A stretch of DNA of 64,000 nucleotides, from positions 304 through 64,303 of the forward strand of contig JAJXYT010000001.1 of assembly GCA_021780375.1 (NCBI GenBank). The letters run 5' to 3'. The stretch comes from a bacterium. Lineage in GTDB: Bacteria; Verrucomicrobiota; Verrucomicrobiia; Limisphaerales; UBA11358. Shown one piece after another: positions 36,568-64,000 of this stretch; position 1 is the first letter of the stretch; each line of letters begins with the position of its first letter. A program made the translations under genes and the position numbers. A model generated the notes under the pieces. The model had not been told where the DNA came from. It saw only the letters and a program-made list of their open reading frames with translations, and ran no database searches.

Positions 36568-37335
36568 CTAACGGGCGGAAAATACCCTTCGGCGCACAAT
36601 CATCAGCAACGCGCCCAAACCGAGGAATGCGCTCGCAACCGGTTCGGGTACCACGGTGTACCTATACGCCGCCGTGCCAAACTTCGTGGCGGCTCCCCCG
36701 GCATCGGTAGCAGCGTCATAAGCATTTTGACCAAGAGTATAAGCGTGATAGCTATTATCTGTCTCCGCCGGATAATTGCTGAGCAATGAACCATAGGCGG
36801 ATTGCCCGGCACTATTGGGGTACGATGACGCAACGTCAAAGTAGAACTGGCTGCCAACACTCAATCCGAGGCTGCTTAACGGCACGGTGAACGTGAGGAA
36901 ATTGTTTCCTGTGCCGCCAGCATCATAGCTCACTGCGGCGTTCTGCGTCCATGCGCCGCCACTGTAGGTGTCCGCACTGGCGCCCGTGTTCCAAGTGGCC
37001 GCAAAGGCGTTTTCACCGGTACTGATGCCAAGACTGGGCCCCCACCCGTTCAGGGCTCCCGCGGAGTTAAACAGCGCCGTACTGCCACTGGCACCCTGGC
37101 CGACATACTGCAAGAGGACATAATACTGAACGTACGCGCTCTGCGCCGCGCTCGTATTAATGGAGAAAGTGATGCTGCTGGCAGTATTGTTGATTACGAC
37201 GCTGCTGATACCTTCCCCATTGGCCCCGCCGCCATTCGCAGTACCGGGACCGATATAAGTGACCTGAGCCTTAGCCGGCAACAGGGCGATTGACAACGCG
37301 GCGAGTACTGATGCGACTGAAGAAACAATTTTCAT
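36568..37335 (-). CDS. PEP-CTERM sorting-domain protein
   Basis: Signal peptide from ATG 37335. The C-terminus VVPEPVASAFLGLGALLMIVRRR has the PEP motif, a TM helix and a basic tail. Confidence 0.8.
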   Translation of the reverse strand: MKIVSSVASVLAALSIALLPAKAQVTYIGPGTANGGGANGEGISSVVINNTASSITFSINTSAAQSAYVQYYVLLQYVGQGASGSTALFNSAGALNGWGPSLGISTGENAFAATWNTGASADTYSGGAWTQNAAVSYDAGGTGNNFLTFTVPLSSLGLSVGSQFYFDVASSYPNSAGQSAYGSLLSNYPAETDNSYHAYTLGQNAYDAATDAGGAATKFGTAAYRYTVVPEPVASAFLGLGALLMIVRRRVFSAR

Positions 37336-37390
37336 AGACGATTGATTTACGGGTTTGCCAACTGCATCAATTATGCCCAAAATTCTTGAG

Positions 37391-54616: not shown

Positions 54617-55582
54617 TCACGGAGGCAAAATTGCCCTGACATACCGGAAGATGTCGGCACCTCCCGATTCGCCAATGGAGGCGGTCGAACTGCTCACATT
54701 CCAATACGTGACAATGCCATTGGGTCCCGTGCTCGACGCATTGAAGAGATTAAACGCATTGGGATTATCCTGTTGCCCCTCCCAGCGGACGTGGCCGTCA
54801 GGGAAAAGCGCATTCATCCCGATATCCCCCTTCGCAAAGGCAAAGTTATCATTTCCCTGGGTTTGATCGGTGGCAATGCACTTTTTCTGATCCAATTCCG
54901 AAACCGTTACGGCCGGTTTTGGGCGATAGAAACCTTTGCCAGCGTATTCCGTGTTTCTTGACTGGGGAAAATAATCATAACCAATCCGGATGTAACCTGG
55001 GTTTTGGCCTGCGTTTGGTTGGGTGCAGTATGACGGCCACGCATAGGGGGGGTTGACATAACAACCGTAGGTCATGTTAAAGCCGATGACTCCCGCCCCG
55101 ACCGGGGTATAAAATACTTTGGGATTGGCAATATCCCTGTCTCCCCATAGAAGCCCAAGGTTCCACCAGCCGGAGGTGGTTTCCCCTGGAACAGTTCCAT
55201 CATCTGTGGAGAAGGTGCTACCCGACTTCATACGCGCTATTTCATGGGTCCGCCACGGGCTGGCCACACTGCTGCCGACGTTTACAGTTCGGTTCATGGC
55301 AACAACTCCCGGCCAGTGAGCCGGCAACAATTGGTTGCGGTGATCGCCCGGATACATTGTCCAGCCTTCGCCAAGTTGTTTCTCGTTGCTGGTGTCGGCT
55401 ACGCGCAACGCCTTTTGCTTGGCCGCCGACAGCGCCGGCAACAGCATCGCGGCCAGGATGGCAATGATGGCAATGACCACCAGCAATTCAATCAAGGTAA
55501 AACCTTGGTGCGGTGGACGTTGCGGCCGACCGGCAGCCGGTCTTACGCCCTTCTGGGCGTCACGATTTAAATTAATAGGCAT
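54617..55582 (-). CDS. DUF1559-type protein with prepilin N-terminal signal, second copy
   Basis: [29 protein letters not shown] class-III signal and a C-terminal ...[11 protein letters not shown] block. Confidence 0.8.
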
Positions 55583-55724: not shown

Positions 55725-57098
55725 TTAGTTGAGGCCACCACCCTGGTTGGCGGTCAAATGGATGCGGCTGGCGTTGGTGATAATGCTCCTGGCCCCGGCA
55801 CCTGGAAAAATGCAATGCGCAATGGTGACATCAGTAATACGTACCGAATCGGAAAAGCCTTCAATGCTGATTGGCTGTCTGGATAAGCGGTCGAACGTGC
55901 AGTCGCGAATGTCAATGTCCCGAATGACCGGCGTGGCATGGCCATTAAGAGTTCCTGAGTATTTCATCGTAATGCCGATGCCGGTCCGGGCCGATTTGAC
56001 CGTGCAATTGCGGATATAGACGTTTTTGATGAAACCGCCGCGGGTCATGCCGGTCTTGAATCGCATGGCAATGTCCAGGTTGGGACTGTTGAATTGGCAA
56101 TCCTCGGCAAACACATTTTCCACGCCCCCGGAGGTTTCACTGCCCACCGTCACGCCGCCATGGCCATCTTTGAAGACGCAATTCTGAATCACGATGTTCC
56201 GGCTGGGAATATTGACCCGGCGGCCGTCCACGTCCCGTCCCGACTTGATGGCGATGCAATCGTCGCCATCGCTGAAATGGCAATTCTTGATCAACACGTC
56301 GGTGCAGGAATCCGGGTCGCAACCGTCCGTGTTGGGGCCGTCGGCGTTCACCGTGACACCTTCCACGGTTACATTGGTGCAATAAAGAGGAGTTATCACC
56401 CACATCGGTGAATCAACGATATGCACGCCTTGGATCAAAACGTCTTTGCATCGCGTTGGCTGGATAAAATACGGGCGCAAGTGATGGCCTTCGCCAAAAA
56501 TCCGTTGTGCCACGGGCACTCCACGGTCCCCCATGGCGACCAGTTCGCTGGGGTCCGGAATTCGTTTCCAGGAATACCAGATTGCCTGATGACCTTGACC
56601 GTCCAGGGTTCCTTCACCGGTGATGGCGATGTTCTCCTGACTCAGCGCGTAGATGAACGGCGAGTAATTCATGACCTCTGTCCCTTCATAACGAGTAAAA
56701 ACGACCGGCAAATAGCTCCTGGGATCGGTACTGAAACGGATGGTGGCACCTTTGGCGACGTCCAGGTCCACATTGCTTTTCAGGTGAATGGCGCCGGTCA
56801 AATAAACACCCGCCGGCACGACGACCTTTCCGCCACCGGCTTCATTGCAGGCTGCAATCGCCTGGCGGAACGCCTCGGTGCAATCGGTGACGCCGTCGCC
56901 TTTCGCGCCGTATTTCGTAATCATAAATGACCGATCGGGAAAAGCGGGCGGCACAATTCGGGCCAAAATATCCGGCAGCTTCGACCAGGCCTGGGCGTCA
57001 TTCGTGGCTGCGGTATCAGCTACCCCTTGAAAAGGGAAAAAGGCAGCTGCCGATATGAGAATAAAAATCTGGCGAAACAAAAATTTAATCATAATCAT
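55725..57098 (-). CDS. GH28 polygalacturonase (exo-type likely)
   Basis: Signal peptide and GH28 catalytic blocks NTDGCDP, GDDCIAIKSG, GHGGVTVGSE and RFKT. Confidence 0.87.
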   Translation of the reverse strand: MIMIKFLFRQIFILISAAAFFPFQGVADTAATNDAQAWSKLPDILARIVPPAFPDRSFMITKYGAKGDGVTDCTEAFRQAIAACNEAGGGKVVVPAGVYLTGAIHLKSNVDLDVAKGATIRFSTDPRSYLPVVFTRYEGTEVMNYSPFIYALSQENIAITGEGTLDGQGHQAIWYSWKRIPDPSELVAMGDRGVPVAQRIFGEGHHLRPYFIQPTRCKDVLIQGVHIVDSPMWVITPLYCTNVTVEGVTVNADGPNTDGCDPDSCTDVLIKNCHFSDGDDCIAIKSGRDVDGRRVNIPSRNIVIQNCVFKDGHGGVTVGSETSGGVENVFAEDCQFNSPNLDIAMRFKTGMTRGGFIKNVYIRNCTVKSARTGIGITMKYSGTLNGHATPVIRDIDIRDCTFDRLSRQPISIEGFSDSVRITDVTIAHCIFPGAGARSIITNASRIHLTANQGGGLN

Positions 57099-57220
57099 GG
57101 GACTTCAGAATAGCGGAATCAGAAGACATGCAAACCCGGAACCTTTGCAAAAAGGCATGAGGAAAGTGCATCCCTGACGAAAACCACTTTGTTATCAATA
57201 GCAACCCCCAATGAGAACCA

Positions 57221-57747
57221 CTACGGTTTCTCATGATAAGGGGAACGGCTTTCAAAGAGCTTGAGCTGGTTTTGAATGACATCAGCCAGTGCCTTGTTGT
57301 TTTGCGCGACGCTCAGCTCCATTGCCTGCCGGGCCGTTCCGACTGCTTCCGGAAATCGTCCAGCCCCGGCATAAGCGGCCGCGAGCGTATCCAGGATCTG
57401 GGGCGATGAGCCTGCGGAAAGTTGCACGGCCCGTTGTGCCGCTTCCACAGCCTTTGGCCCATTGCGCAGCGACGCGTCCGGACAGGTCGCCAGTATCCAG
57501 GCCAGATTGAGGCGCGCGCCGGAATGACCAGGATCAAGTCCGAGAGTTCTTTGATATTCGGCGATGGCGGCGGAGAATTTCTTTTCTTTTTCCAAGGCCC
57601 GGGCGTAACGGAAGTGGGCCTGGGCGGATGGTAAACAATGACTGTGGCCACCAGCAAAACCAATCCGGGCAACCAGCCCTGGTTCCATAACTTCCAGGCG
57701 AATTCAATGGCTGGTTGTGGAGGTTTGTTTGCCACGGTGACCGGCAA
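57221..57747 (-). pseudogene. 5'-truncated, frameshifted paralog of the TMTC-like/TPR gene (TPR tail only)
   Basis: The C-terminal ~95 aa are ~70 percent identical to the end of 59182-61404. An N-terminal TM-like segment (WLPGLVLLVATVIVYH) is in a different frame, with the switch near 57620. Confidence 0.55.
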
Positions 57748-57753
57748 AAACTA

Positions 57754-57784
57754 AACAGGCGCTGGAAAATTACCAGCGCCTGTT
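57754..57784 (-). terminator. Hairpin aacaggcgctgg-N7-ccagcgcctgtt after the PEP-CTERM gene stop
   Basis: Perfect 12-bp stem followed on the minus strand by a T-rich tract. A near-identical hairpin lies at 61449-61477. Confidence 0.65.
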
Positions 57785-57807
57785 CGTGAAAAAATACCAG
57801 ACAGGTA

Positions 57808-58809
57808 TTAACGACGGACCCGACGATAGCCCAGAACCATTCCCAACACGCCAAAGCCAAAAATGGCCATTGAGGCGGGCTCTGGCACTGACGAAACCGC
57901 ATCAATAGTTAAGGAATTGACATCCATGGTGGAAGCCGGATCGCTAGAAACGCCCGAATATCGCCACCCGATGGCCATGCCGCTAAACGTGCTGGTCAGG
58001 ATGGTCGAGGTGGTAACGCTTTGACTCCAGAGATCCGTCCCGCCAGTTCCCACTCCATCATAGAGATCGTAAGCAATTGTGTATTGGCCAGCCGCACTCG
58101 AAGTAATCCGGTAGTTAACCGTGTACTGATTGCCACCAGTGAGGGCCAGAGCCGACGCCGCCGTACCTAACGATGTGCCTGTCGGATTTTTATAAGTACC
58201 GGTGCCAGCACCGGTGAAAAGCAGGTCTTGGTTTCCATTGTTGTCATTTCCGGTTCCGTCGGTTACCGCGTTCTGCTGGTTTCGGGTGTAAATCCCGGCG
58301 GTACCGCTTTGAAACACCCTGCCCATGTAACCCTGCCAAAGCTGGGCACCGCCTGTGTTGTATGTCGTCGCCGAGCTGAGGCCGCTCTGATCAAGACCCG
58401 TCAATGGAGCAACCCCGCCGCTGTCGTACAGGCCAACATTGAGGGTAGCCGACGTGCCACTGCCGCCCAGAATGCCGGACGTGTCTGTAAACACAAAATT
58501 AAGGTTCACATAATCCCCGACAGAACCAAGTGTTACCGACGGAAACAAAGCTTGTGCTTCGACAAATGCCGAGGAAGTCGAAGGGAGGCCGAAACTAAAG
58601 TTTCCCGTGGACATCGAAGCAGCCGGGGCATTTTTTGTGGAGGCAATTTCGTAGCTGGTCGAAGTGGAAGTCGGTGCTACTGGTGCAACATTGACGGTGC
58701 TGCTGGAAAAATCATCACTGAATATGTTTCCAGCAAATGCAGATTGGCCGACCACTGCCAGGCTGACAATTGCACTTAGGGTGAGAATAGAGGAACTCGA
58801 ACTTTTCAT
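57808..58809 (-). CDS. PEP-CTERM sorting-domain protein (Ser/Thr/Gly-rich)
   Basis: Signal peptide and the C-terminus VPEPASMAIFGFGVLGMVLGYRRVRR. Confidence 0.8.
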   Translation of the reverse strand: MKSSSSSILTLSAIVSLAVVGQSAFAGNIFSDDFSSSTVNVAPVAPTSTSTSYEIASTKNAPAASMSTGNFSFGLPSTSSAFVEAQALFPSVTLGSVGDYVNLNFVFTDTSGILGGSGTSATLNVGLYDSGGVAPLTGLDQSGLSSATTYNTGGAQLWQGYMGRVFQSGTAGIYTRNQQNAVTDGTGNDNNGNQDLLFTGAGTGTYKNPTGTSLGTAASALALTGGNQYTVNYRITSSAAGQYTIAYDLYDGVGTGGTDLWSQSVTTSTILTSTFSGMAIGWRYSGVSSDPASTMDVNSLTIDAVSSVPEPASMAIFGFGVLGMVLGYRRVRR

Positions 58810-59181
58810 TTGATTTGTGGCTTCCGGATTTTTGTATGTACTCCTTCATTTTGCATATTCCCGGACGTTTGTCAGCTTAAATCTCCTCCAATAGGCTGCA
58901 AAAGACATTGAAAATTCAGCACTCGCTTCGGCGTTATCCGCATAATTTCATGACTTTGAGCAGCATTCGCAAATACCAAGGTCAGTCGGCCGGAAAACAG
59001 GAAAAATGCGCCTGAACGCCCGCTGGGAACACTTCCTGGAACTCGGTTTCCTTATTCAGCATCCGAACCGCGCCTGGCTGGCGTGAATGGAATGGATGGT
59101 CCGCTTGATAGAGCTTCAGTTGTGATCGAAGGGCGAGATGCTGGATTTTCGGACACGATAATTGCCAATGGTCTGTAACCA

Positions 59182-61404
59182 CTAAGGTTTCTCATGGTAG
59201 GCGAAATGCCTTTCAAAGAGTTTCAGTTGAGTCTGTATGTCGTCGGTCAACGCCTTGTTGTTTTGAGCAGTGCTCAAATCCAAAGCCCGGCGCGCGGTTG
59301 CGACCGCTTCGGGAAAACGTCCGGTTTCAGCATAAGCGGCCGCCAGCGTGTCCAGAATCTGCGGGGCTACGCCTGCGGAAAGTTTCACGGCACGTTGCGC
59401 CAGTTCCACCGCCTTTGGACCATCACGCAAGGATGCGTCCGAACAGGTCGCCAGGATCCAGGCCAGATCGTTTTGAGCTGTGACATGAAGCGGGTTCAGT
59501 TCGAGAACCTTCTGAAATTGAGCGATGGCTGCCGCGGATTTGCCCAGGCATCGAAAGGCCAGACCCAATTGATAATGAGCGTGGATTGAATCAGGCGCCT
59601 GTTTCAGCGCTTGCTGGTAATTTTCAGCGGCACCCTGCCACTGGCCTTGGGCGAAAAGCAAATCGGCAAGATTGTCATGCGCCTTGGCGTAGTCCGGATC
59701 AATTTCAAGGGCTTTCTGAAATTGCTCAATGGCCTGTGCCGACTGTCCCTGTCTGGCTAACAGGTCGCCGAGATTATTGTAAAACTCTGCGCGACCCGGC
59801 TCGATTTCGGTCGCCTGCTGATATTGTTCGATCGCCTGATCGACCCGGCCTTGTCTGGCCAGAAGGATTCCCATGTTGTTGTGCGCTTCGGCAAAGGTCG
59901 GGTCAACCGCCAGCGCATGGCGAAAACATTCCAGCGCCTTGTTCAGTTTTCCCTGACGGAGAAGAGCCGTTCCAAGATTGTTATTGCAATCCACACAGTC
60001 GGGATTGATCTGGAGAGCTTTCTGATAATGCCTGACGGCTTCCTCGGTCCGCCCGCGGGCGGCCAGATCATAACCCAAATTGTTTTGGGCGATGTAATTT
60101 CCGCGGGTGCAGGCGATAGCGTGTTTCCAAAGCGATTCATCATTCTTCCAAAAAGAGATTTGCCTCCAAGTGCAGACCGCCAAAGCAACGATTATGATGG
60201 ACGCCGCCGTTGCCAGGATCTGACCGCGATAACGCCAGGTAGTGGTCAAACCTGCGACAACCCACACTATGGCAATATATAATCCGATTTGCGGCAAATA
60301 AGTATAGCGATCGGCATGGGCGTAGAAGGATATCTGCACGATTCCAATGACCGGGATCAGCATCCCCAAATACCAAAGCCAGCCAACCACCAGCCATGGG
60401 TGTTGTTTGTGAAAAGTCCAGACCACCACAGATATGGCCAGTAACAGCGCCACTGCTCCAGCCACCTGCCAGAGGGGCAAATTAGAGGTGGGGTTGGGAT
60501 AAAGACACGCCAGGCCCGACGGATAAAACATCTGCCCGAGGCAGGTAACATACGAGACCACGGCGTTTTCCAGCCGCAATTCCAAAGGCAGACGCAGAAA
60601 ACCAGAAATTTTTTCCGGGGCCAAAAACGTCATCACGCACGATCCAATTGTCAGTGCAAACAGCGGAACCTTCTCGACCAACAGCCTCGCAAAATCCCGG
60701 ATTCCGGATTCCGGATTCCGAATTCGATTCAATGGCCAGTAATCCAGCAACAAGAGCACGAAGGGCAGTGTCACCAGCATGTTCTTGGACAGGAGTCCCA
60801 ACGCGAAGCATAGCGCCACCACGCTGTAGCGAATCATTGAGGGCTGACGGACATAGCGGAGATAAGCACCGAGGGTCAGCATAAAGAAGAACGCGCTTAA
60901 CACGTCCTTGCGTTCCGCCACCCAGGCCACTGATTCCACCCGCAGCGGATGAACCGCAAATACCGCCGCCACAAACGCGCTGCGCCAGAGGGCGCCGGTC
61001 ATCTGTCGCAGCACCAGGAAAAGCAAGATCACCGTTGCCGTGTGCAACAAGACATTGGTGAAATGATGACCTTCGGCATTCAATCCGTAGAGTTGGCAAT
61101 CCAGCATGTGGGAGAGCCAGGTCAGCGGATGCCAGTGGCCAATGGCACTGTAAGTCAGTGCCCAGCGAAATCCTTCCCAGGTCAGACCTCTTTGGACAAT
61201 GAGATTCCTGGAGACATACACACCGTCATCGAAGACGAATCCGCATCCGAGCGTCCGCCCGAAGACGAGGAACACCATCAGTGCCAGCAGAACGCACACG
61301 CTGAAAACTGTCCGGCTGCTGACCGCTTTGCCGGAAAACGATGGTGGCTGCGGAACTGCCATAGGCTTTGACCATATTTGCCGGTCAGGGCCTGAAGGGG
61401 CCAC
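59182..61404 (-). CDS. TMTC-like GT-C membrane glycosyltransferase domain fused to TPR repeats
   Basis: The N-terminal ~400 aa are polytopic, with an FVFDD motif in the first loop as in PMT/TMTC-type GT-C enzymes. The C-terminal ~330 aa are TPR repeats. Confidence 0.75.
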   Translation of the reverse strand: MAPSGPDRQIWSKPMAVPQPPSFSGKAVSSRTVFSVCVLLALMVFLVFGRTLGCGFVFDDGVYVSRNLIVQRGLTWEGFRWALTYSAIGHWHPLTWLSHMLDCQLYGLNAEGHHFTNVLLHTATVILLFLVLRQMTGALWRSAFVAAVFAVHPLRVESVAWVAERKDVLSAFFFMLTLGAYLRYVRQPSMIRYSVVALCFALGLLSKNMLVTLPFVLLLLDYWPLNRIRNPESGIRDFARLLVEKVPLFALTIGSCVMTFLAPEKISGFLRLPLELRLENAVVSYVTCLGQMFYPSGLACLYPNPTSNLPLWQVAGAVALLLAISVVVWTFHKQHPWLVVGWLWYLGMLIPVIGIVQISFYAHADRYTYLPQIGLYIAIVWVVAGLTTTWRYRGQILATAASIIIVALAVCTWRQISFWKNDESLWKHAIACTRGNYIAQNNLGYDLAARGRTEEAVRHYQKALQINPDCVDCNNNLGTALLRQGKLNKALECFRHALAVDPTFAEAHNNMGILLARQGRVDQAIEQYQQATEIEPGRAEFYNNLGDLLARQGQSAQAIEQFQKALEIDPDYAKAHDNLADLLFAQGQWQGAAENYQQALKQAPDSIHAHYQLGLAFRCLGKSAAAIAQFQKVLELNPLHVTAQNDLAWILATCSDASLRDGPKAVELAQRAVKLSAGVAPQILDTLAAAYAETGRFPEAVATARRALDLSTAQNNKALTDDIQTQLKLFERHFAYHEKP

Positions 61405-61448
61405 TTAAAATTTGCCGGCTCGGATACAGAATCGTCTCCAAATACAAA

Positions 61449-61477
61449 ACAGGCGCTGGAAAATTTCCAGCGCCTGT
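61449..61477 (-). terminator. Hairpin acaggcgctgg-N7-ccagcgcctgt after the PEP-CTERM gene stop
   Basis: 11-bp perfect stem. It is a paralog of 57754-57784. Confidence 0.65.
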
Positions 61478-61497
61478 CACAAGGAAAACCACAACGA

Positions 61498-62343
61498 TTA
61501 GCGTTGCATCCGACGCCGGGCTGAGGCAATCAAACCGAATATTCCCAAGCCTGCCAGCGCCAAGACAGACGGTTCGGGAACGCCCGCGGGCGTCACATCC
61601 GCCCAAGTTGTGCCAATCAAAAGATTATCAACCAAATAAGGACCACCCGCCGCGGTTTGAGCTTTGAACCCTACGTTGTCTATGTTTCCGTACGACCCTC
61701 CCCCAGTTCCATACGCTCCAGACGCCGTAAGACCTGAAAGAGTTGCAATCGCTGTGGGTGCGGTTCCACCAAAGGTGCTTGCGTCCGGGTCTATCCAAAG
61801 GCTGGCAGTATGTGCATCGAGGTCAATCATTTCAACGATGAGGTACGTCGTATTAAGTGTCAAGGCGGTGCCGGTCCCAGCGGTTGCCGAAGCAGGGTTG
61901 GCTCGCAACTCCATCTTTCCGTTCGAATAATAATAGGCATCAATCGCGTCGCTGCCGCCATTGGGAGTATTGGCGCCCGCATTCAACGCGGTGAAGTAGT
62001 TATTGGCACTGTCGGCTGCAGTTGCATTAAACAAGAAGGAATAGTAAACCTGCCCGCTGGTCTGATTTGCGAACGTATTATAAATAGTTCCCGCGGCCCC
62101 GTTAGCGATTTGAAGTTCGTTGCCGCCCGAATCTGCCAAACCCGCATAAGTCAGGTTACCGCTGGCAACGGTCAAACCGGAATTACCGGCGCTCCAAGCG
62201 GTGCTGTTACCGGGGTTGATATTACCGCCAAGGACACCCGGGCTATAATTAAAAGCTTCTGAAAAAAGCAGCGTGGCATGGGCAGTCTGAAAAGCAAAAC
62301 AGAGGGCGCCCATAGTGAGAATGACTGAGTATGTACGTTTCAT
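61498..62343 (-). CDS. PEP-CTERM sorting-domain protein with LamG-like module
   Basis: Signal peptide from ATG 62343. The body is LLFSEAFNYSPG...LWIDPDASTFGG...LLIGTTWADVTP and the C-terminus is VPEPSVLALAGLGIFGLIASARRR. Confidence 0.8.
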   Translation of the reverse strand: MKRTYSVILTMGALCFAFQTAHATLLFSEAFNYSPGVLGGNINPGNSTAWSAGNSGLTVASGNLTYAGLADSGGNELQIANGAAGTIYNTFANQTSGQVYYSFLFNATAADSANNYFTALNAGANTPNGGSDAIDAYYYSNGKMELRANPASATAGTGTALTLNTTYLIVEMIDLDAHTASLWIDPDASTFGGTAPTAIATLSGLTASGAYGTGGGSYGNIDNVGFKAQTAAGGPYLVDNLLIGTTWADVTPAGVPEPSVLALAGLGIFGLIASARRRMQR

Positions 62344-62581
62344 AATAAGACTTTGCGATTTATGGTTCGTTCTTCTGATTGCTTTATAATAACCCACTTC
62401 TGCAATCTGTCAGCCCCGTTTTGTTGCAAACATGCATGAAAATTGAGAACTATCGATTTCGAATGATGCTCTATAACCTGTTTATTATTAGCCACTAAAG
62501 ACCACTGTTGCCTAAGCTTTTGAAATGCAGTAAGGAACGCAAATTCGCGCTGTTCCTGGCTCCGGCTGGCCATTCCACCGA

Positions 62582-64000
62582 TTACGGTATTTCCAAAATG
62601 TAATACGCTTGTGGCGCTTTCGGATCGGGGACGTTGGTGAAAATGAAATGACCGCTCCCATCAAAGAGATTGGTGGCAACCGGCGTCCACTGGTTCAGCG
62701 GAAGCGCGATATTGGTGGAAACCAGCATGTAAAAAGTGCCGTTGGTTGTGCCGCCAGTGCCGCTCATGACCAAGCCATTGGCCGTGGCGCTGATGCTGCT
62801 GAAGCTCGGCGGCGACGGCAGCTGAGGTGTCGCGCTCACTTCGGACGAATTGGCGCTTTCGCCGCCTCCATTTACCGCCGATACCACATAATAGTAAGTG
62901 GTGCCGTTTGTGACCTGCGTGTCGGTGTAGCTCGTCGCTGTGACACTGGCATTGGTCGCTGACTCGTTGCCACTGATGGTCGTGCGTTTGACATTGTAGC
63001 TGGTCGCCCCGGAGGAAGCATTCCAAGTCAAGGCGACTTGCGCGTTGCCGGCCGTGGCCGACAAACCCGTCGGCGCCGCCGGCGGGCCGTTGGTCGACGT
63101 GACGACCAAATTCACTTGCCCGGCTGTGCTGGTGTTTAACTGATAAGTATAACCCGCCGGTGTGGCACCCAACACAGGCGTGCCGGCCCGGGTGCCAGTA
63201 TAGGTGAACAACGTGTAGGCACCCGCGCCGAAGCCGGCGCCAGCGGCGATGTTCAGCGTGCTGTTCAGGGTCAGATTGCCGGTTACTGCGATTTCGGCGA
63301 CGTTGGTACCCAAGGTAAAATTCACAGGGGTTGTGGCACCCAGCGTCAGACTCGTTCCATCCGAGAGCGCGCTCCCGCCCAGACTGATGGGATTGGCGCC
63401 GAATATGGTGGAGTCGCTCAAGGATGCCGACTGATTGTAAAATGCCAGGGCATTGGTGACCGACGTGCCGTCCAGCGTGATGGTGCCGTCGCCGGTCGCA
63501 GAGTTCGTAAAGGTAACCTGCGAGTTAAACAACTCGAAGGTTTTGCTCCCAGCCGGGAAGATTTGGGAGTCCACAACTTGAACGCCCCGAACATTGTAAA
63601 GGGCAAACGCACTGTCACCAGCGGAGGAATCGGTCGAGGTGATGTTGAGTTTGCTCAAAACAATATTGGACGCGGGCAACTCACTGCGCGCCCAAATCAT
63701 GCCCGGTTGGGCGGCCGTCGCCGTCACATTACTGATGACGATGTTCCGCCATATCGGCGTCGTGCTGCTCACCGATGACACCGCTGTTCCCGCTGCCACC
63801 GATGGCGTGATGCCGGCCGTGGTCGGATTGCCGTATGAATTGTAATAGCTGTAAATCAAAATCGGCGCATACTTGATGTTCGTCATGCCGATGTTGTAGT
63901 AGGACATGTTTTGCACCACCCCCCCGCGGTCGTTGTCGGACTTCATGCGGATGGCATTGTCGGTATTGGTGAAGATGCAGTTGATGACGGTCACATTTGA
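62582..64000 (-). CDS. Pectin-lyase-fold (GH28-like) protein, 5' end outside the window, with FN3-like domain and FYR-type tail
   Basis: The frame is open to the window edge. A beta-helix segment (NAIRMKSDNDRGG...) is followed by an FN3-like block (PTGLSATAGNAQVALTWNASSGATSYNVKR). The protein ends AYYILEIP. Confidence 0.7.
   Translation of the reverse strand, partial: SNVTVINCIFTNTDNAIRMKSDNDRGGVVQNMSYYNIGMTNIKYAPILIYSYYNSYGNPTTAGITPSVAAGTAVSSVSSTTPIWRNIVISNVTATAAQPGMIWARSELPASNIVLSKLNITSTDSSAGDSAFALYNVRGVQVVDSQIFPAGSKTFELFNSQVTFTNSATGDGTITLDGTSVTNALAFYNQSASLSDSTIFGANPISLGGSALSDGTSLTLGATTPVNFTLGTNVAEIAVTGNLTLNSTLNIAAGAGFGAGAYTLFTYTGTRAGTPVLGATPAGYTYQLNTSTAGQVNLVVTSTNGPPAAPTGLSATAGNAQVALTWNASSGATSYNVKRTTISGNESATNASVTATSYTDTQVTNGTTYYYVVSAVNGGGESANSSEVSATPQLPSPPSFSSISATANGLVMSGTGGTTNGTFYMLVSTNIALPLNQWTPVATNLFDGSGHFIFTNVPDPKAPQAYYILEIP

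What the first reader, a model, noticed from the sequence alone, without database searches (positions are those of the whole stretch)
57221..62343. Recurring gene pair: PEP-CTERM protein, conserved hairpin, then TMTC-like/TPR gene - a possible dedicated glycosylation module for exosortase substrates
The same order occurs twice on the minus strand: a Ser/Thr/Gly-rich PEP-CTERM protein gene (61498-62343; 57808-58809), a near-identical hairpin acaggcgctgg-N7-ccagcgcctgt (61449-61477; 57754-57784), then a TPR gene (59182-61404; 57221-57747). The intact TPR gene carries an N-terminal polytopic domain with an FVFDD loop motif, like eukaryotic TMTC/PMT GT-C protein O-mannosyltransferases. PEP-CTERM proteins are widely thought to be glycosylated during exosortase-dependent export. 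A GT-C enzyme with a TPR substrate-recognition arm encoded directly behind its putative substrate would be a concrete candidate for that step. The hairpin between the genes could set the substrate-to-enzyme expression ratio.
Basis: inference. Interest (0 to 1): 0.65.

Follow-up and report, generated by a model that had tools for sequence, protein, structure and literature searches.

The report
PEP-CTERM gene, hairpin, GT-C/TPR enzyme module
In a group of uncultured soil and mine-drainage Verrucomicrobiota, genes for exosortase-sorted surface proteins are followed by an almost letter-invariant RNA hairpin and then a membrane glycosyltransferase with a TPR arm. That enzyme is a concrete but unproven candidate for modifying such proteins.

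Summary
Two PEP-CTERM genes (61498-62343, 57808-58809, minus strand) are each followed 20-24 nt after the stop by the same hairpin (stem ACAGGCGCUGG/CCAGCGCCUGU, then a U-tract), and then by a TPR gene.

The intact downstream protein (59182-61362/61404) has a GT-C glycosyltransferase fold. Its best structural matches are Pmt4, STT3, Pmt1/2, PglB and ArnT. It has an invariant DD loop, about 11 membrane helices and a C-terminal TPR arm, which is the TMTC architecture. It does not match Pfam's TMTC signature.

The second TPR gene is a wreck. Compared with an intact orthologue in a relative, about 618 residues are deleted and the two remaining pieces lie in different frames.

The triplet recurs on at least 10 independent contigs of related Verrucomicrobiota, with unrelated PEP-CTERM proteins and two GT-C subfamilies. 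In that clade, PEP-CTERM genes followed by the enzyme carry the hairpin (11/11). Those not followed by it do not (0/5). Two exceptions turned up in a search that selected for the stem.

Across the whole GT-C/TPR family the pairing is rare: 4 of 136 evaluable genes.

The most likely reading is an operon with a leaky terminator. Glycosylation of the neighbouring protein is plausible but untested.

The parts
62386..62413 (-). Promoter-like site (CTGACA-16-TATTAT, 10/12) upstream of PEP-CTERM gene A
   Evidence: Consensus scan only. Function not shown.
61498..62343 (-). PEP-CTERM protein A, 281 aa. Signal peptide ending AHA, then a beta-rich exported domain, then the tail VPEPSVLALAGLGIFGLIASARRRMQR.
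   Evidence: Pfam PF07589. At least 264 homologues, mostly 262-275 aa, several named 'PEP-CTERM sorting domain-containing protein'. Orthologue at about 76% identity in L201.
61438..61477 (-). Hairpin A: stem ACAGGCGCUGG / CCAGCGCCUGU, loop AAAUUUU, then UUUUGUAUUUGG. The stem starts 20 nt after the stop codon.
   Evidence: Fold -30.8 kcal/mol, z -5.4. Covariance model match 73.4 bits.
59182..61404 (-). GT-C glycosyltransferase domain (residues about 30-430, about 11 TM helices, DD59-60) fused to a C-terminal TPR arm (about 435-740). The likely true start is the ATG at 61362 (726 aa).
   Evidence: Structure models with pLDDT 83.5 and 87.3. Foldseek top hits are all GT-C enzymes. TPR Pfam hits. 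15 of 41 homologues hit PMT_2. Invariant motifs.
58848..58875 (-). Promoter-like site (CTGACA-16-CAAAAT, 9/12) upstream of PEP-CTERM gene B
   Evidence: Consensus scan only.
57808..58809 (-). PEP-CTERM protein B, 333 aa, S+T 27%, tail VPEPASMAIFGFGVLGMVLGYRRVRR
   Evidence: Pfam PF07589. 35 homologues. Unrelated to protein A outside the tail.
57742..57785 (-). Hairpin B: same stem as A, loop UAAUUUU, then UUAGUUUUUGCC. The stem starts 24 nt after the stop codon.
   Evidence: Fold -31.9 kcal/mol, z -6.2. Covariance model match 74.5 bits.
57598..57747 (-). Remnant of the N-terminus (cytoplasmic tail plus TM1) of a second GT-C/TPR paralogue
   Evidence: Aligns to residues 13-53 of the intact 806-aa paralogue L201:7702-10122. 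It lies in a different frame from the C-terminal piece.
57221..57628 (-). Remnant of the last TPR unit and the C-terminal cap domain of the same paralogue. The 155-aa ORF from the ATG at 57688 has no catalytic domain and no membrane anchor.
   Evidence: 64% identical to residues 672-806 of L201:7702-10122. About 618 residues, including the DD motif, are missing.

Best explanation
This is a lineage-restricted, operon-like module. A strongly expressed gene for an exosortase-sorted (PEP-CTERM) surface protein heads one or more genes for a polytopic GT-C glycosyltransferase. The enzyme's TPR arm sits in the periplasm, as in eukaryotic TMTC enzymes.

Between the two genes, at a fixed 20-24 nt after the stop codon, lies an 11-bp G+C-rich RNA hairpin followed by a U-tract. 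It most likely works as a leaky intrinsic terminator, a 3'-end stabiliser, or both. Much surface-protein mRNA and little enzyme mRNA would then come from one promoter.

The enzyme probably transfers a sugar from a polyprenyl-phosphate-sugar donor to Ser/Thr of exported proteins held by the TPR arm. The neighbouring PEP-CTERM protein is the prime candidate substrate.

Shown: gene order, conservation of the hairpin and its context, the GT-C fold, conserved catalytic-site motifs, and the decay of the second copy.

Inferred: termination or read-through, the identity of the substrate, the sugar and the donor.
For: GT-C fold. The model of residues 1-432 has pLDDT 87.3 and pTM 0.89. Apart from one weak transporter hit at rank 28, the top 30 Foldseek matches in the PDB are all GT-C enzymes: Pmt4 9i5k, STT3, Pmt1/2 6p25, PglB, ArnT 5f15, AftD, DPY19 and AglB.

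Catalytic motifs. D59-D60, R165-x-D167, K207...T212 and D365-R366-x-x-Y369 are invariant or nearly so in 41 homologues at 42-66% identity. They correspond to TMTC motifs M1, M3, M4 (in part) and M7 of PMC7801869.

Recurrence of the module in loci found through proteins, not through the stem:
- window A and B
- L001 and L002
- L201 and L202, the latter with two copies
- L203, L205 and L206
- L207, a stem variant

In the metagenome pattern scan, 8 further contigs carry the hairpin 20-24 nt after a PEP-CTERM stop codon, and 6 of them have a GT-C/TPR gene behind it.

The upstream proteins belong to at least 3 unrelated families. The downstream enzymes belong to 2 subfamilies with different DD-loop contexts, (V/I)N(Y/F)DD (FVFDD in the window) and (I/L/V)WDDD.

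Correlation in this clade. A PEP-CTERM gene followed by a GT-C/TPR gene has the hairpin in 11 of 11 cases. A PEP-CTERM gene without one (L204, L207-B, L208, L209, window 36568-37380) has it in 0 of 5. In L204 the element is replaced by a degenerate stem with a T7 run.

Stem. 121 of 121 cells pair. The only two changes, both in L207, give G-U pairs, which are valid only in the sense-strand RNA.

Co-transcription. The enzyme's start codon lies 17-34 nt behind the hairpin in L199, L093 and L107, which leaves no room for a separate promoter. No promoter-like site lies between the hairpin and the enzyme gene in the window.
Against: Across the family the pairing is rare. Of 147 GT-C/TPR genes in 80 species, 136 could be evaluated. 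Four have a PEP-CTERM-like gene upstream and 46 have another paralogue, which is about what chance would give.

Only the first gene of a tandem array has the PEP-CTERM gene and hairpin in front of it (L002, L201, L203).

The hairpin occurs without the enzyme in L082, where it sits between convergent genes, and in L156.

Homologues of protein B usually lack the enzyme.

The conserved partners may simply be parts of one conserved pectin-degradation locus: GH28 and pectinesterase genes flank the pair in the window, L201, L203, L205 and L206.

The loci are phylogenetically related, so the 11/0 against 0/5 table overstates independence.

The metal-binding Glu of TMTC motif M4 is missing, and there is no DUF1736 hit.

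There are no transcript data: metatranscriptomes of the same study hold no contigs of this locus. There are no glycoproteomic data.
Confidence: 0.45

Rival explanations
1. The genes are neighbours by history only. The PEP-CTERM gene and the GT-C/TPR genes are separate functions inside a conserved pectin-utilisation locus. The enzymes are general periplasmic protein glycosyltransferases, or act on other targets. The hairpin is simply the PEP-CTERM gene's own terminator, kept alike by shared descent and by gene conversion among PEP-CTERM 3' ends.
For: No family-wide linkage: 4 of 136 evaluable genes. The enzymes form tandem arrays of up to 5-6 paralogues with no matching number of PEP-CTERM genes. 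GH28 and pectinesterase genes flank the pair repeatedly. The hairpin also closes a PEP-CTERM gene that faces a convergent GH28 gene in L082. The PEP-CTERM tails next to the hairpin are themselves very alike at the nucleotide level.
Against: The hairpin is absent from 5 of 5 PEP-CTERM genes of the clade that lack the enzyme, including a 71% homologue of protein A. The same hairpin joins unrelated PEP-CTERM proteins to two enzyme subfamilies. In several loci the start codon lies too close behind the hairpin for a separate promoter.
Confidence: 0.33
2. The GT-C/TPR protein does not glycosylate proteins. Like ArnT or the arabinosyltransferases, it modifies a lipid or polysaccharide of the envelope, perhaps the acceptor to which exosortase attaches its cargo. 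Alternatively, it serves mainly as a TPR scaffold.
For: The structural matches include the lipid and glycan transferases ArnT, AftA/B/D and Emb at scores similar to those of PMT and STT3. The Glu of TMTC motif M4 is missing. No bacterial member of this family has a tested function in the literature searched.
Against: The best match is the protein O-mannosyltransferase Pmt4. The only Pfam family hit by homologues is PMT_2. A long periplasmic TPR arm is the protein-binding module of the TMTC enzymes (PMC7801869).
Confidence: 0.12
3. The hairpin is not a transcript feature. It is a REP/MITE-like repeat, or a DNA palindrome bound by a dimeric regulator.
For: The stem is a perfect 11-bp palindrome and is almost invariant, while the flanks and the loop vary. 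No Rfam family matches.
Against: Loop length varies from 5 to 9 nt, which is awkward for a dimeric DNA-binding site. The only stem changes give G-U pairs, which would be C-A mismatches on the other strand. The orientation is always that of the gene, with a U-tract on the 3' side and a fixed distance from the stop codon. The element was never seen behind any other kind of gene in about 214 kb of clade sequence.
Confidence: 0.07

Closest known systems
Eukaryotic TMTC1-4 protein O-mannosyltransferases (GT-C/PMT clan; PMC7801869)
   Same: The architecture is the same: N-terminal GT-C domain of about 11 TM helices, a DD motif in the first extracytoplasmic loop, and a C-terminal TPR arm on the same side of the membrane. 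Counterparts of motifs M1 (DD), M3 (RxD) and M7 ([E/D]RxxY) are present, and partial counterparts of M2 and M4.
   Different: There is no match to Pfam DUF1736, the TMTC signature. The M4 glutamate is absent. The protein is bacterial, so the donor would be an undecaprenyl-type rather than a dolichyl phosphate sugar. Many tandem paralogues exist. No substrate is known.
PMT-family protein O-mannosyltransferases (Pmt4, Pmt1/Pmt2; Pfam PMT and PMT_2)
   Same: Pmt4 is the best structural match (9i5k, TM-score 0.55 over the query). 15 of 41 homologues hit PMT_2.
   Different: There is no MIR domain; a TPR arm takes its place. The window protein itself is below detection for PMT_2.
Intercistronic hairpins that set expression ratios in operons for a major structural subunit and its accessory genes (for example papBA, pufBA-LMX, malEFG REP; from general knowledge)
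   Same: A stable stem-loop lies directly after the abundant structural gene and before the less-needed downstream genes, with the look of a terminator.
   Different: Here the stem sequence is nearly invariant across organisms whose proteins differ by 20-40%, and its distance from the stop codon is fixed. No transcript data exist.
XrtA/PEP-CTERM system TPR lipoprotein PrsT (TIGR02917)
   Same: It is a TPR protein genomically associated with PEP-CTERM/exosortase systems. The TPR arm of the window protein gives a sub-threshold match.
   Different: The score is 140.9 bits against a cut-off of 312. PrsT has no GT-C membrane domain.
   Same: The same idea: a GT-C O-mannosyltransferase-like enzyme with TPR repeats directly downstream of a PEP-CTERM gene.
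   Different: It concerns a different GT-C family (Pfam PF11028), which the window protein does not match.

Membership tests
PEP-CTERM sorting-signal proteins (Pfam PF07589 / TIGR02595) | C-terminal P-E-P motif, hydrophobic helix and basic cluster at the very end of the protein | tested here: met
   PF07589 above the cut-off for both proteins. TIGR02595 above the cut-off for protein B. The tails are visible.
PEP-CTERM sorting-signal proteins (Pfam PF07589 / TIGR02595) | An exosortase (EpsH/Xrt) encoded in the same genome | not testable with these tools
GT-C fold glycosyltransferases | Polytopic membrane domain with the GT-C fold | tested here: met
   Model pLDDT 87.3. Apart from one weak transporter hit at rank 28, the top 30 Foldseek PDB hits are all GT-C enzymes, probability 0.99-1.00.
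GT-C fold glycosyltransferases | Conserved acidic motif in the first extracytoplasmic loop | tested here: met
   D59 and D60 are invariant in 28 and in 41 homologues. They follow TM1 (helix 30-53) in the model.
Pfam PMT_2 (PF13231) | Significant match to the family profile | tested here: inconclusive
   The window protein has no hit even at E<=10. 15 of 41 aligned homologues hit it, best E 1.6e-10, as do the products on L203.
TMTC family (Pfam DUF1736 PF08409 plus TPR) | About 11 TM helices followed by C-terminal TPR repeats | tested here: met
   Helix list of the models. TPR Pfam hits at 435-740. Topology is inferred from the odd number of helices.
TMTC family (Pfam DUF1736 PF08409 plus TPR) | DUF1736 loop between TM7 and TM8 | tested here: not met
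   No Pfam hit on residues 1-435 at E<=10. None among the 41 homologues.
TMTC family (Pfam DUF1736 PF08409 plus TPR) | Motifs M1-M7 of PMC7801869 | tested here: inconclusive
   By eye against the list: M1 DD, M3 R165xD167 and M7 D365-R366-x-x-Y369 are present. M2 is partial (GHWHPLTW against SHKSYRPLT). M4 has K207 and T212 but no Glu. M5 and M6 are unclear. No direct profile comparison with TMTC sequences was possible.
TMEM260-like (Pfam PF11028) | Match to the family profile | tested here: not met
   No hit.
PrsT, XrtA-system TPR lipoprotein (TIGR02917) | Score above the curated cut-off | tested here: not met
   140.9 bits against a cut-off of 312.2, on the TPR region only.
Rho-independent (intrinsic) terminator | G+C-rich stem-loop directly followed by a U-tract, downstream of a stop codon | tested here: met
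   The two top-ranked terminator-like sites. Fold energies -29 to -37 kcal/mol, z -4.9 to -6.3.
Rho-independent (intrinsic) terminator | Transcripts end at the U-tract | not testable with these tools
   Metatranscriptome runs of the same study hold no contigs of the locus.
Any Rfam family | Match to a covariance model | tested here: not met
   No match at E<=1 over 57000-62600.
REP / MITE-like dispersed repeat | Many copies in varied intergenic contexts | tested here: not met
   Two copies in 64 kb. Every copy with the terminator form lies behind a PEP-CTERM gene. The whole genome could not be searched.

The most novel reading that the evidence does not exclude
The nearly invariant hairpin is a sequence-specific regulatory RNA element, for example the target of an antiterminator or a processing factor. 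It couples synthesis of particular exosortase cargo proteins to their own dedicated GT-C/TPR O-glycosyltransferase. This would be the first cargo-specific glycosylation module for PEP-CTERM proteins and a bacterial counterpart of the TMTC-cadherin relationship. It would also give a first function to an enormous orphan family (79,432 clusters at 50% identity).
Probability: 0.18. Interest if true: 0.8.

Novelty: new variant of a known kind. Interest (0 to 1): 0.56.

Why it matters
PEP-CTERM/exosortase cargo proteins have long been suspected of being modified during export, but no enzyme has been assigned. Bacterial GT-C enzymes with a TPR arm form one of the largest families without a tested function: 79,432 clusters at 50% identity, and no Pfam or NCBIfam model for the membrane domain of this protein.

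A conserved three-part unit of cargo gene, fixed-position hairpin and enzyme gene gives one specific substrate-enzyme pair to test by heterologous expression. It also gives a compact RNA element whose letter-level conservation asks for an explanation. If the link holds, it opens both questions at once.

If it does not hold, the result is still a clean example of a conserved terminator inside a verrucomicrobial pectin-utilisation locus.

Tried and rejected
- Sequence searches of the N-terminal domain found nothing: Pfam, NCBIfam and the PDB with the single sequence, and the PDB with a 41-sequence profile.
- The fold search with the full-length model was swamped by TPR proteins. It was repeated with the membrane domain alone.
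- The covariance model of the hairpin found no diverged copies in 78 loci of more distant relatives, so no compensatory changes could be collected. Covariation support is therefore nil beyond two G-U changes.
- Most of the 120 hits in the metagenome pattern scan were chance matches inside coding regions of high-G+C organisms. They were set aside by requiring a T-rich 3' flank.
- RNA evidence: only DNA runs hold the locus, and three metatranscriptomes of the same study gave zero contigs.
- The idea that the 155-aa ORF 57221-57688 is a working short TPR gene was considered. L002 has a free-standing 103-aa C-terminal-cap ORF in the same position. It is judged unlikely here, because an orthologous TM1 piece sits just upstream in another frame.
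- A sigma-70-like promoter overlapping the hairpin was considered (TTGTCA upstream, AT-rich loop as the -10). The spacing of about 22 nt does not fit.
Full report
**What is in the window.** On the minus strand the order is as follows.
- The end of a GH28 gene (62582-63994).
- PEP-CTERM gene A (61498-62343).
- Hairpin A (61449-61477).
- A 740-aa TPR gene (59182-61404).
- PEP-CTERM gene B (57808-58809).
- Hairpin B (57754-57784).
- A short TPR reading frame (57221-57688/57747).
- A GH28 gene (55725-57098).
- A prepilin-like gene (54617-55582).

Both PEP-CTERM ORFs pass Pfam PF07589. Outside the sorting tail they are unrelated. The hairpin pattern occurs exactly twice in 64 kb, with none expected by chance. 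A third PEP-CTERM-type gene at 36568-37380 has neither the hairpin nor a TPR gene behind it. The surroundings form a pectin and galactan utilisation region with GH28, GH53, GH2, UxaE and an AraC/XylR-type regulator. No exosortase gene lies in the window.

**The intact downstream protein.** Residues 1-435 match nothing in Pfam, NCBIfam or the PDB by sequence.

The family is nevertheless enormous. More than 8,000 close hits were found, mostly from Verrucomicrobiota and named only 'tetratricopeptide repeat protein', with a few JGI entries named 'protein O-mannosyl-transferase'. In the representative library, 79,432 clusters at 50% identity match with E<=1e-3.

An AlphaFold model of the membrane domain, built from 41 homologues, has pLDDT 87.3 and pTM 0.89. 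Apart from one weak transporter hit at rank 28, its top 30 Foldseek matches in the PDB are all GT-C glycosyltransferases. They are led by Pmt4, followed by STT3, Pmt1/Pmt2, PglB, ArnT, AftD, DPY19 and AglB. Fifteen of the 41 homologues hit Pfam PMT_2.

Several residues are invariant or nearly invariant: D59-D60 (inside GFVFDD), GHWHPLTW, HPLxVESVAW-x2-ERKD, K207...T212 and ADRYTY. They line up with TMTC motifs M1, M2 (partly), M3, M4 (without its Glu) and M7 as listed in PMC7801869. About 11 membrane helices precede at least 6 TPR units.

So the protein has a GT-C fold and the TMTC architecture. It is not a demonstrable member of the TMTC family, because there is no DUF1736 match. The likely start is the ATG at 61362, as in the database copy and the orthologues.

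**The second TPR gene is a remnant.** In L201, a contig whose orthologue of the intact gene is 80% identical, the order is GH28, PEP-CTERM A, hairpin, GT-C/TPR 1, GT-C/TPR 2 (806 aa, intact), GH28, prepilin-like.

The window's 57598-57747 frame matches residues 13-53 of that second paralogue. The 57221-57628 frame matches residues 672-806 at 64% identity. About 618 residues are gone, including the DD loop, the whole catalytic domain and most TPR units, and the two pieces are out of frame.

A contig from a public DNA run spans 57470-59034 without a difference. The module therefore does occur twice in the window, but only once in working order.

**The hairpin is a conserved element with a fixed context.** In L001 and L002, which are species representatives with about 60% identical enzymes, the same stem follows a PEP-CTERM stop codon and precedes the enzyme gene.

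Looking up homologues of the enzyme and of proteins A and B gave further copies in L201, L202 (two), L203, L205, L206 and L207.

A pattern scan of metagenome contigs returned mostly chance coding matches. It also returned 8 contigs with the full form: TTTCnCGA, stem, AT-rich loop of 7-9 nt, stem, TTTnnTTTT. In every one of these the element starts 20-24 nt after a PEP-CTERM stop codon. Six of the 8 have a GT-C/TPR gene behind it. L082 has a convergent GH28 gene instead, and L156 has nothing recognisable.

In the 11 copies found through proteins, all 121 stem cells pair. Nine of the 11 pairs never vary. The only two changes, both in L207, turn A-U and U-A into G-U and U-G. Those pairs exist only in the sense-strand RNA. 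Meanwhile the loop, the spacer and the downstream flank vary freely.

There is no Rfam match. The predicted folds are -29 to -37 kcal/mol, with z-scores of -4.9 to -6.3.

**Does the hairpin go with the enzyme or with the PEP-CTERM gene?** Within the clade, every PEP-CTERM gene followed by a GT-C/TPR gene has the hairpin (11 of 11, counting the window's remnant and the L207 variant).

PEP-CTERM genes not followed by the enzyme lack it (0 of 5). These are the 71% homologue of A on L204, the B homologues on L207, L208 and L209, and window 36568-37380. In L204 the position holds a degenerate stem (CCAGCG...CGCTGG) with a T7 run.

Taken at face value this table gives a Fisher probability of about 2e-4 (my arithmetic). 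The loci are related, however, and L082 and L156 show that the hairpin can occur without the enzyme.

The upstream proteins fall into at least three unrelated families. The enzymes fall into two subfamilies that are about 30% identical and differ in the DD-loop context: (V/I)N(Y/F)DD, which is FVFDD in the window, and (I/L/V)WDDD.

**Family-wide view.** In 80 loci from 80 species (Verrucomicrobiota, Planctomycetota, Desulfobacterota, Acidobacteriota and others) I counted 147 GT-C/TPR genes. Of the 136 that could be evaluated, 46 have another paralogue directly upstream and 4 have a PEP-CTERM-like gene: L001, L002, L036 and L077. The covariance model finds no hairpin in the other 78 loci. The linkage is therefore a feature of one clade, not of the family.

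**How it most likely works.** The hairpin has every formal property of an intrinsic terminator. Yet the enzyme's start codon lies 17, 19 and 34 nt behind it in L199, L093 and L107. No promoter-like site lies between the hairpin and the enzyme gene in the window, whereas both PEP-CTERM genes have one upstream.

The simplest reading is a single transcription unit in which the hairpin ends or stabilises most transcripts after the abundant surface-protein gene and lets a minority continue into the enzyme gene or genes. The near-invariance of the stem letters goes beyond what pairing alone requires and remains unexplained. A sequence-specific factor is possible.

The claim that the enzyme glycosylates its neighbour rests on gene order and on analogy with TMTC and PMT enzymes only. 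The Ser/Thr richness of A and B is shared with other exported proteins of the window.

**Known or new.** No paper in the held library links PEP-CTERM proteins with TMTC-like or other GT-C enzymes. PMC7801869 mentions prokaryotic TMTC homologues only in passing. An unverified note of this scan reports a TMEM260-like GT-C/TPR gene behind a PEP-CTERM gene in another genome. The window protein does not match that family. I did not test that note.

**Limits.** I therefore could not obtain genome-wide counts or locate the exosortase. No transcript data exist for the locus.

Noticed in passing
window 57221-57520; 59182-59480; L002 7987-8297: All GT-C/TPR paralogues end in the same cap of about 100 aa (LAWxLATxPDASLRNG...LDTLAAAYAEAGRF...PYHEKP). 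The two window copies are 77% identical over 300 nt here. In L002 the cap stands alone as a 103-aa ORF, directly behind the hairpin and in front of the full-length enzyme gene.
   Followed up: partly
L012, L052, L045, L028, L002 (whole loci): GT-C/TPR genes often form head-to-tail arrays of 4-6 paralogues. In 46 of 136 evaluable cases the upstream neighbour is another paralogue.
   Followed up: partly
L202 4300-6628: In one hairpin unit both partners look broken. The PEP-CTERM tail is frameshifted, and the GT-C/TPR gene behind it is split over two frames and lacks its first 70 or so profile positions.
   Followed up: no
L204 880-3870 and 6828-6900: The homologue of protein A that lacks the enzyme sits next to a phage-type integrase and a HigB toxin gene. 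Its hairpin position holds a degenerate stem with a T7 run.
   Followed up: partly
L181 678-720; L205 6856-6900; L206 6860-6905; L202 7900-7925: Behind the hairpin, units with a WDDD-type enzyme (L181, L205) or a divergent one (L206), and also L202b whose enzyme is not WDDD-type, share a further conserved stretch (TTTGGTTTTCAGAaTGACCCAACCGGC). It could be part of a 5' leader.
   Followed up: no
window 62386-62413 and 58848-58875: Both PEP-CTERM genes have a promoter-like site that starts with the same CTGACA hexamer at a 16-nt spacing.
   Followed up: no
L201 (DATJNM010000084.1): The record is labelled Candidatus Sulfopaludibacter (Acidobacteriota). Its locus is nevertheless syntenic with this verrucomicrobial window and 76-80% identical to it. 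The contig is probably mis-binned.
   Followed up: no
window 60820-61201: In DNA run X1 the summed contig depth rises from about 8 to 14-28 over the most conserved part of the GT-C domain. Many loose ends show that paralogues or related organisms in the sample map there.
   Followed up: no
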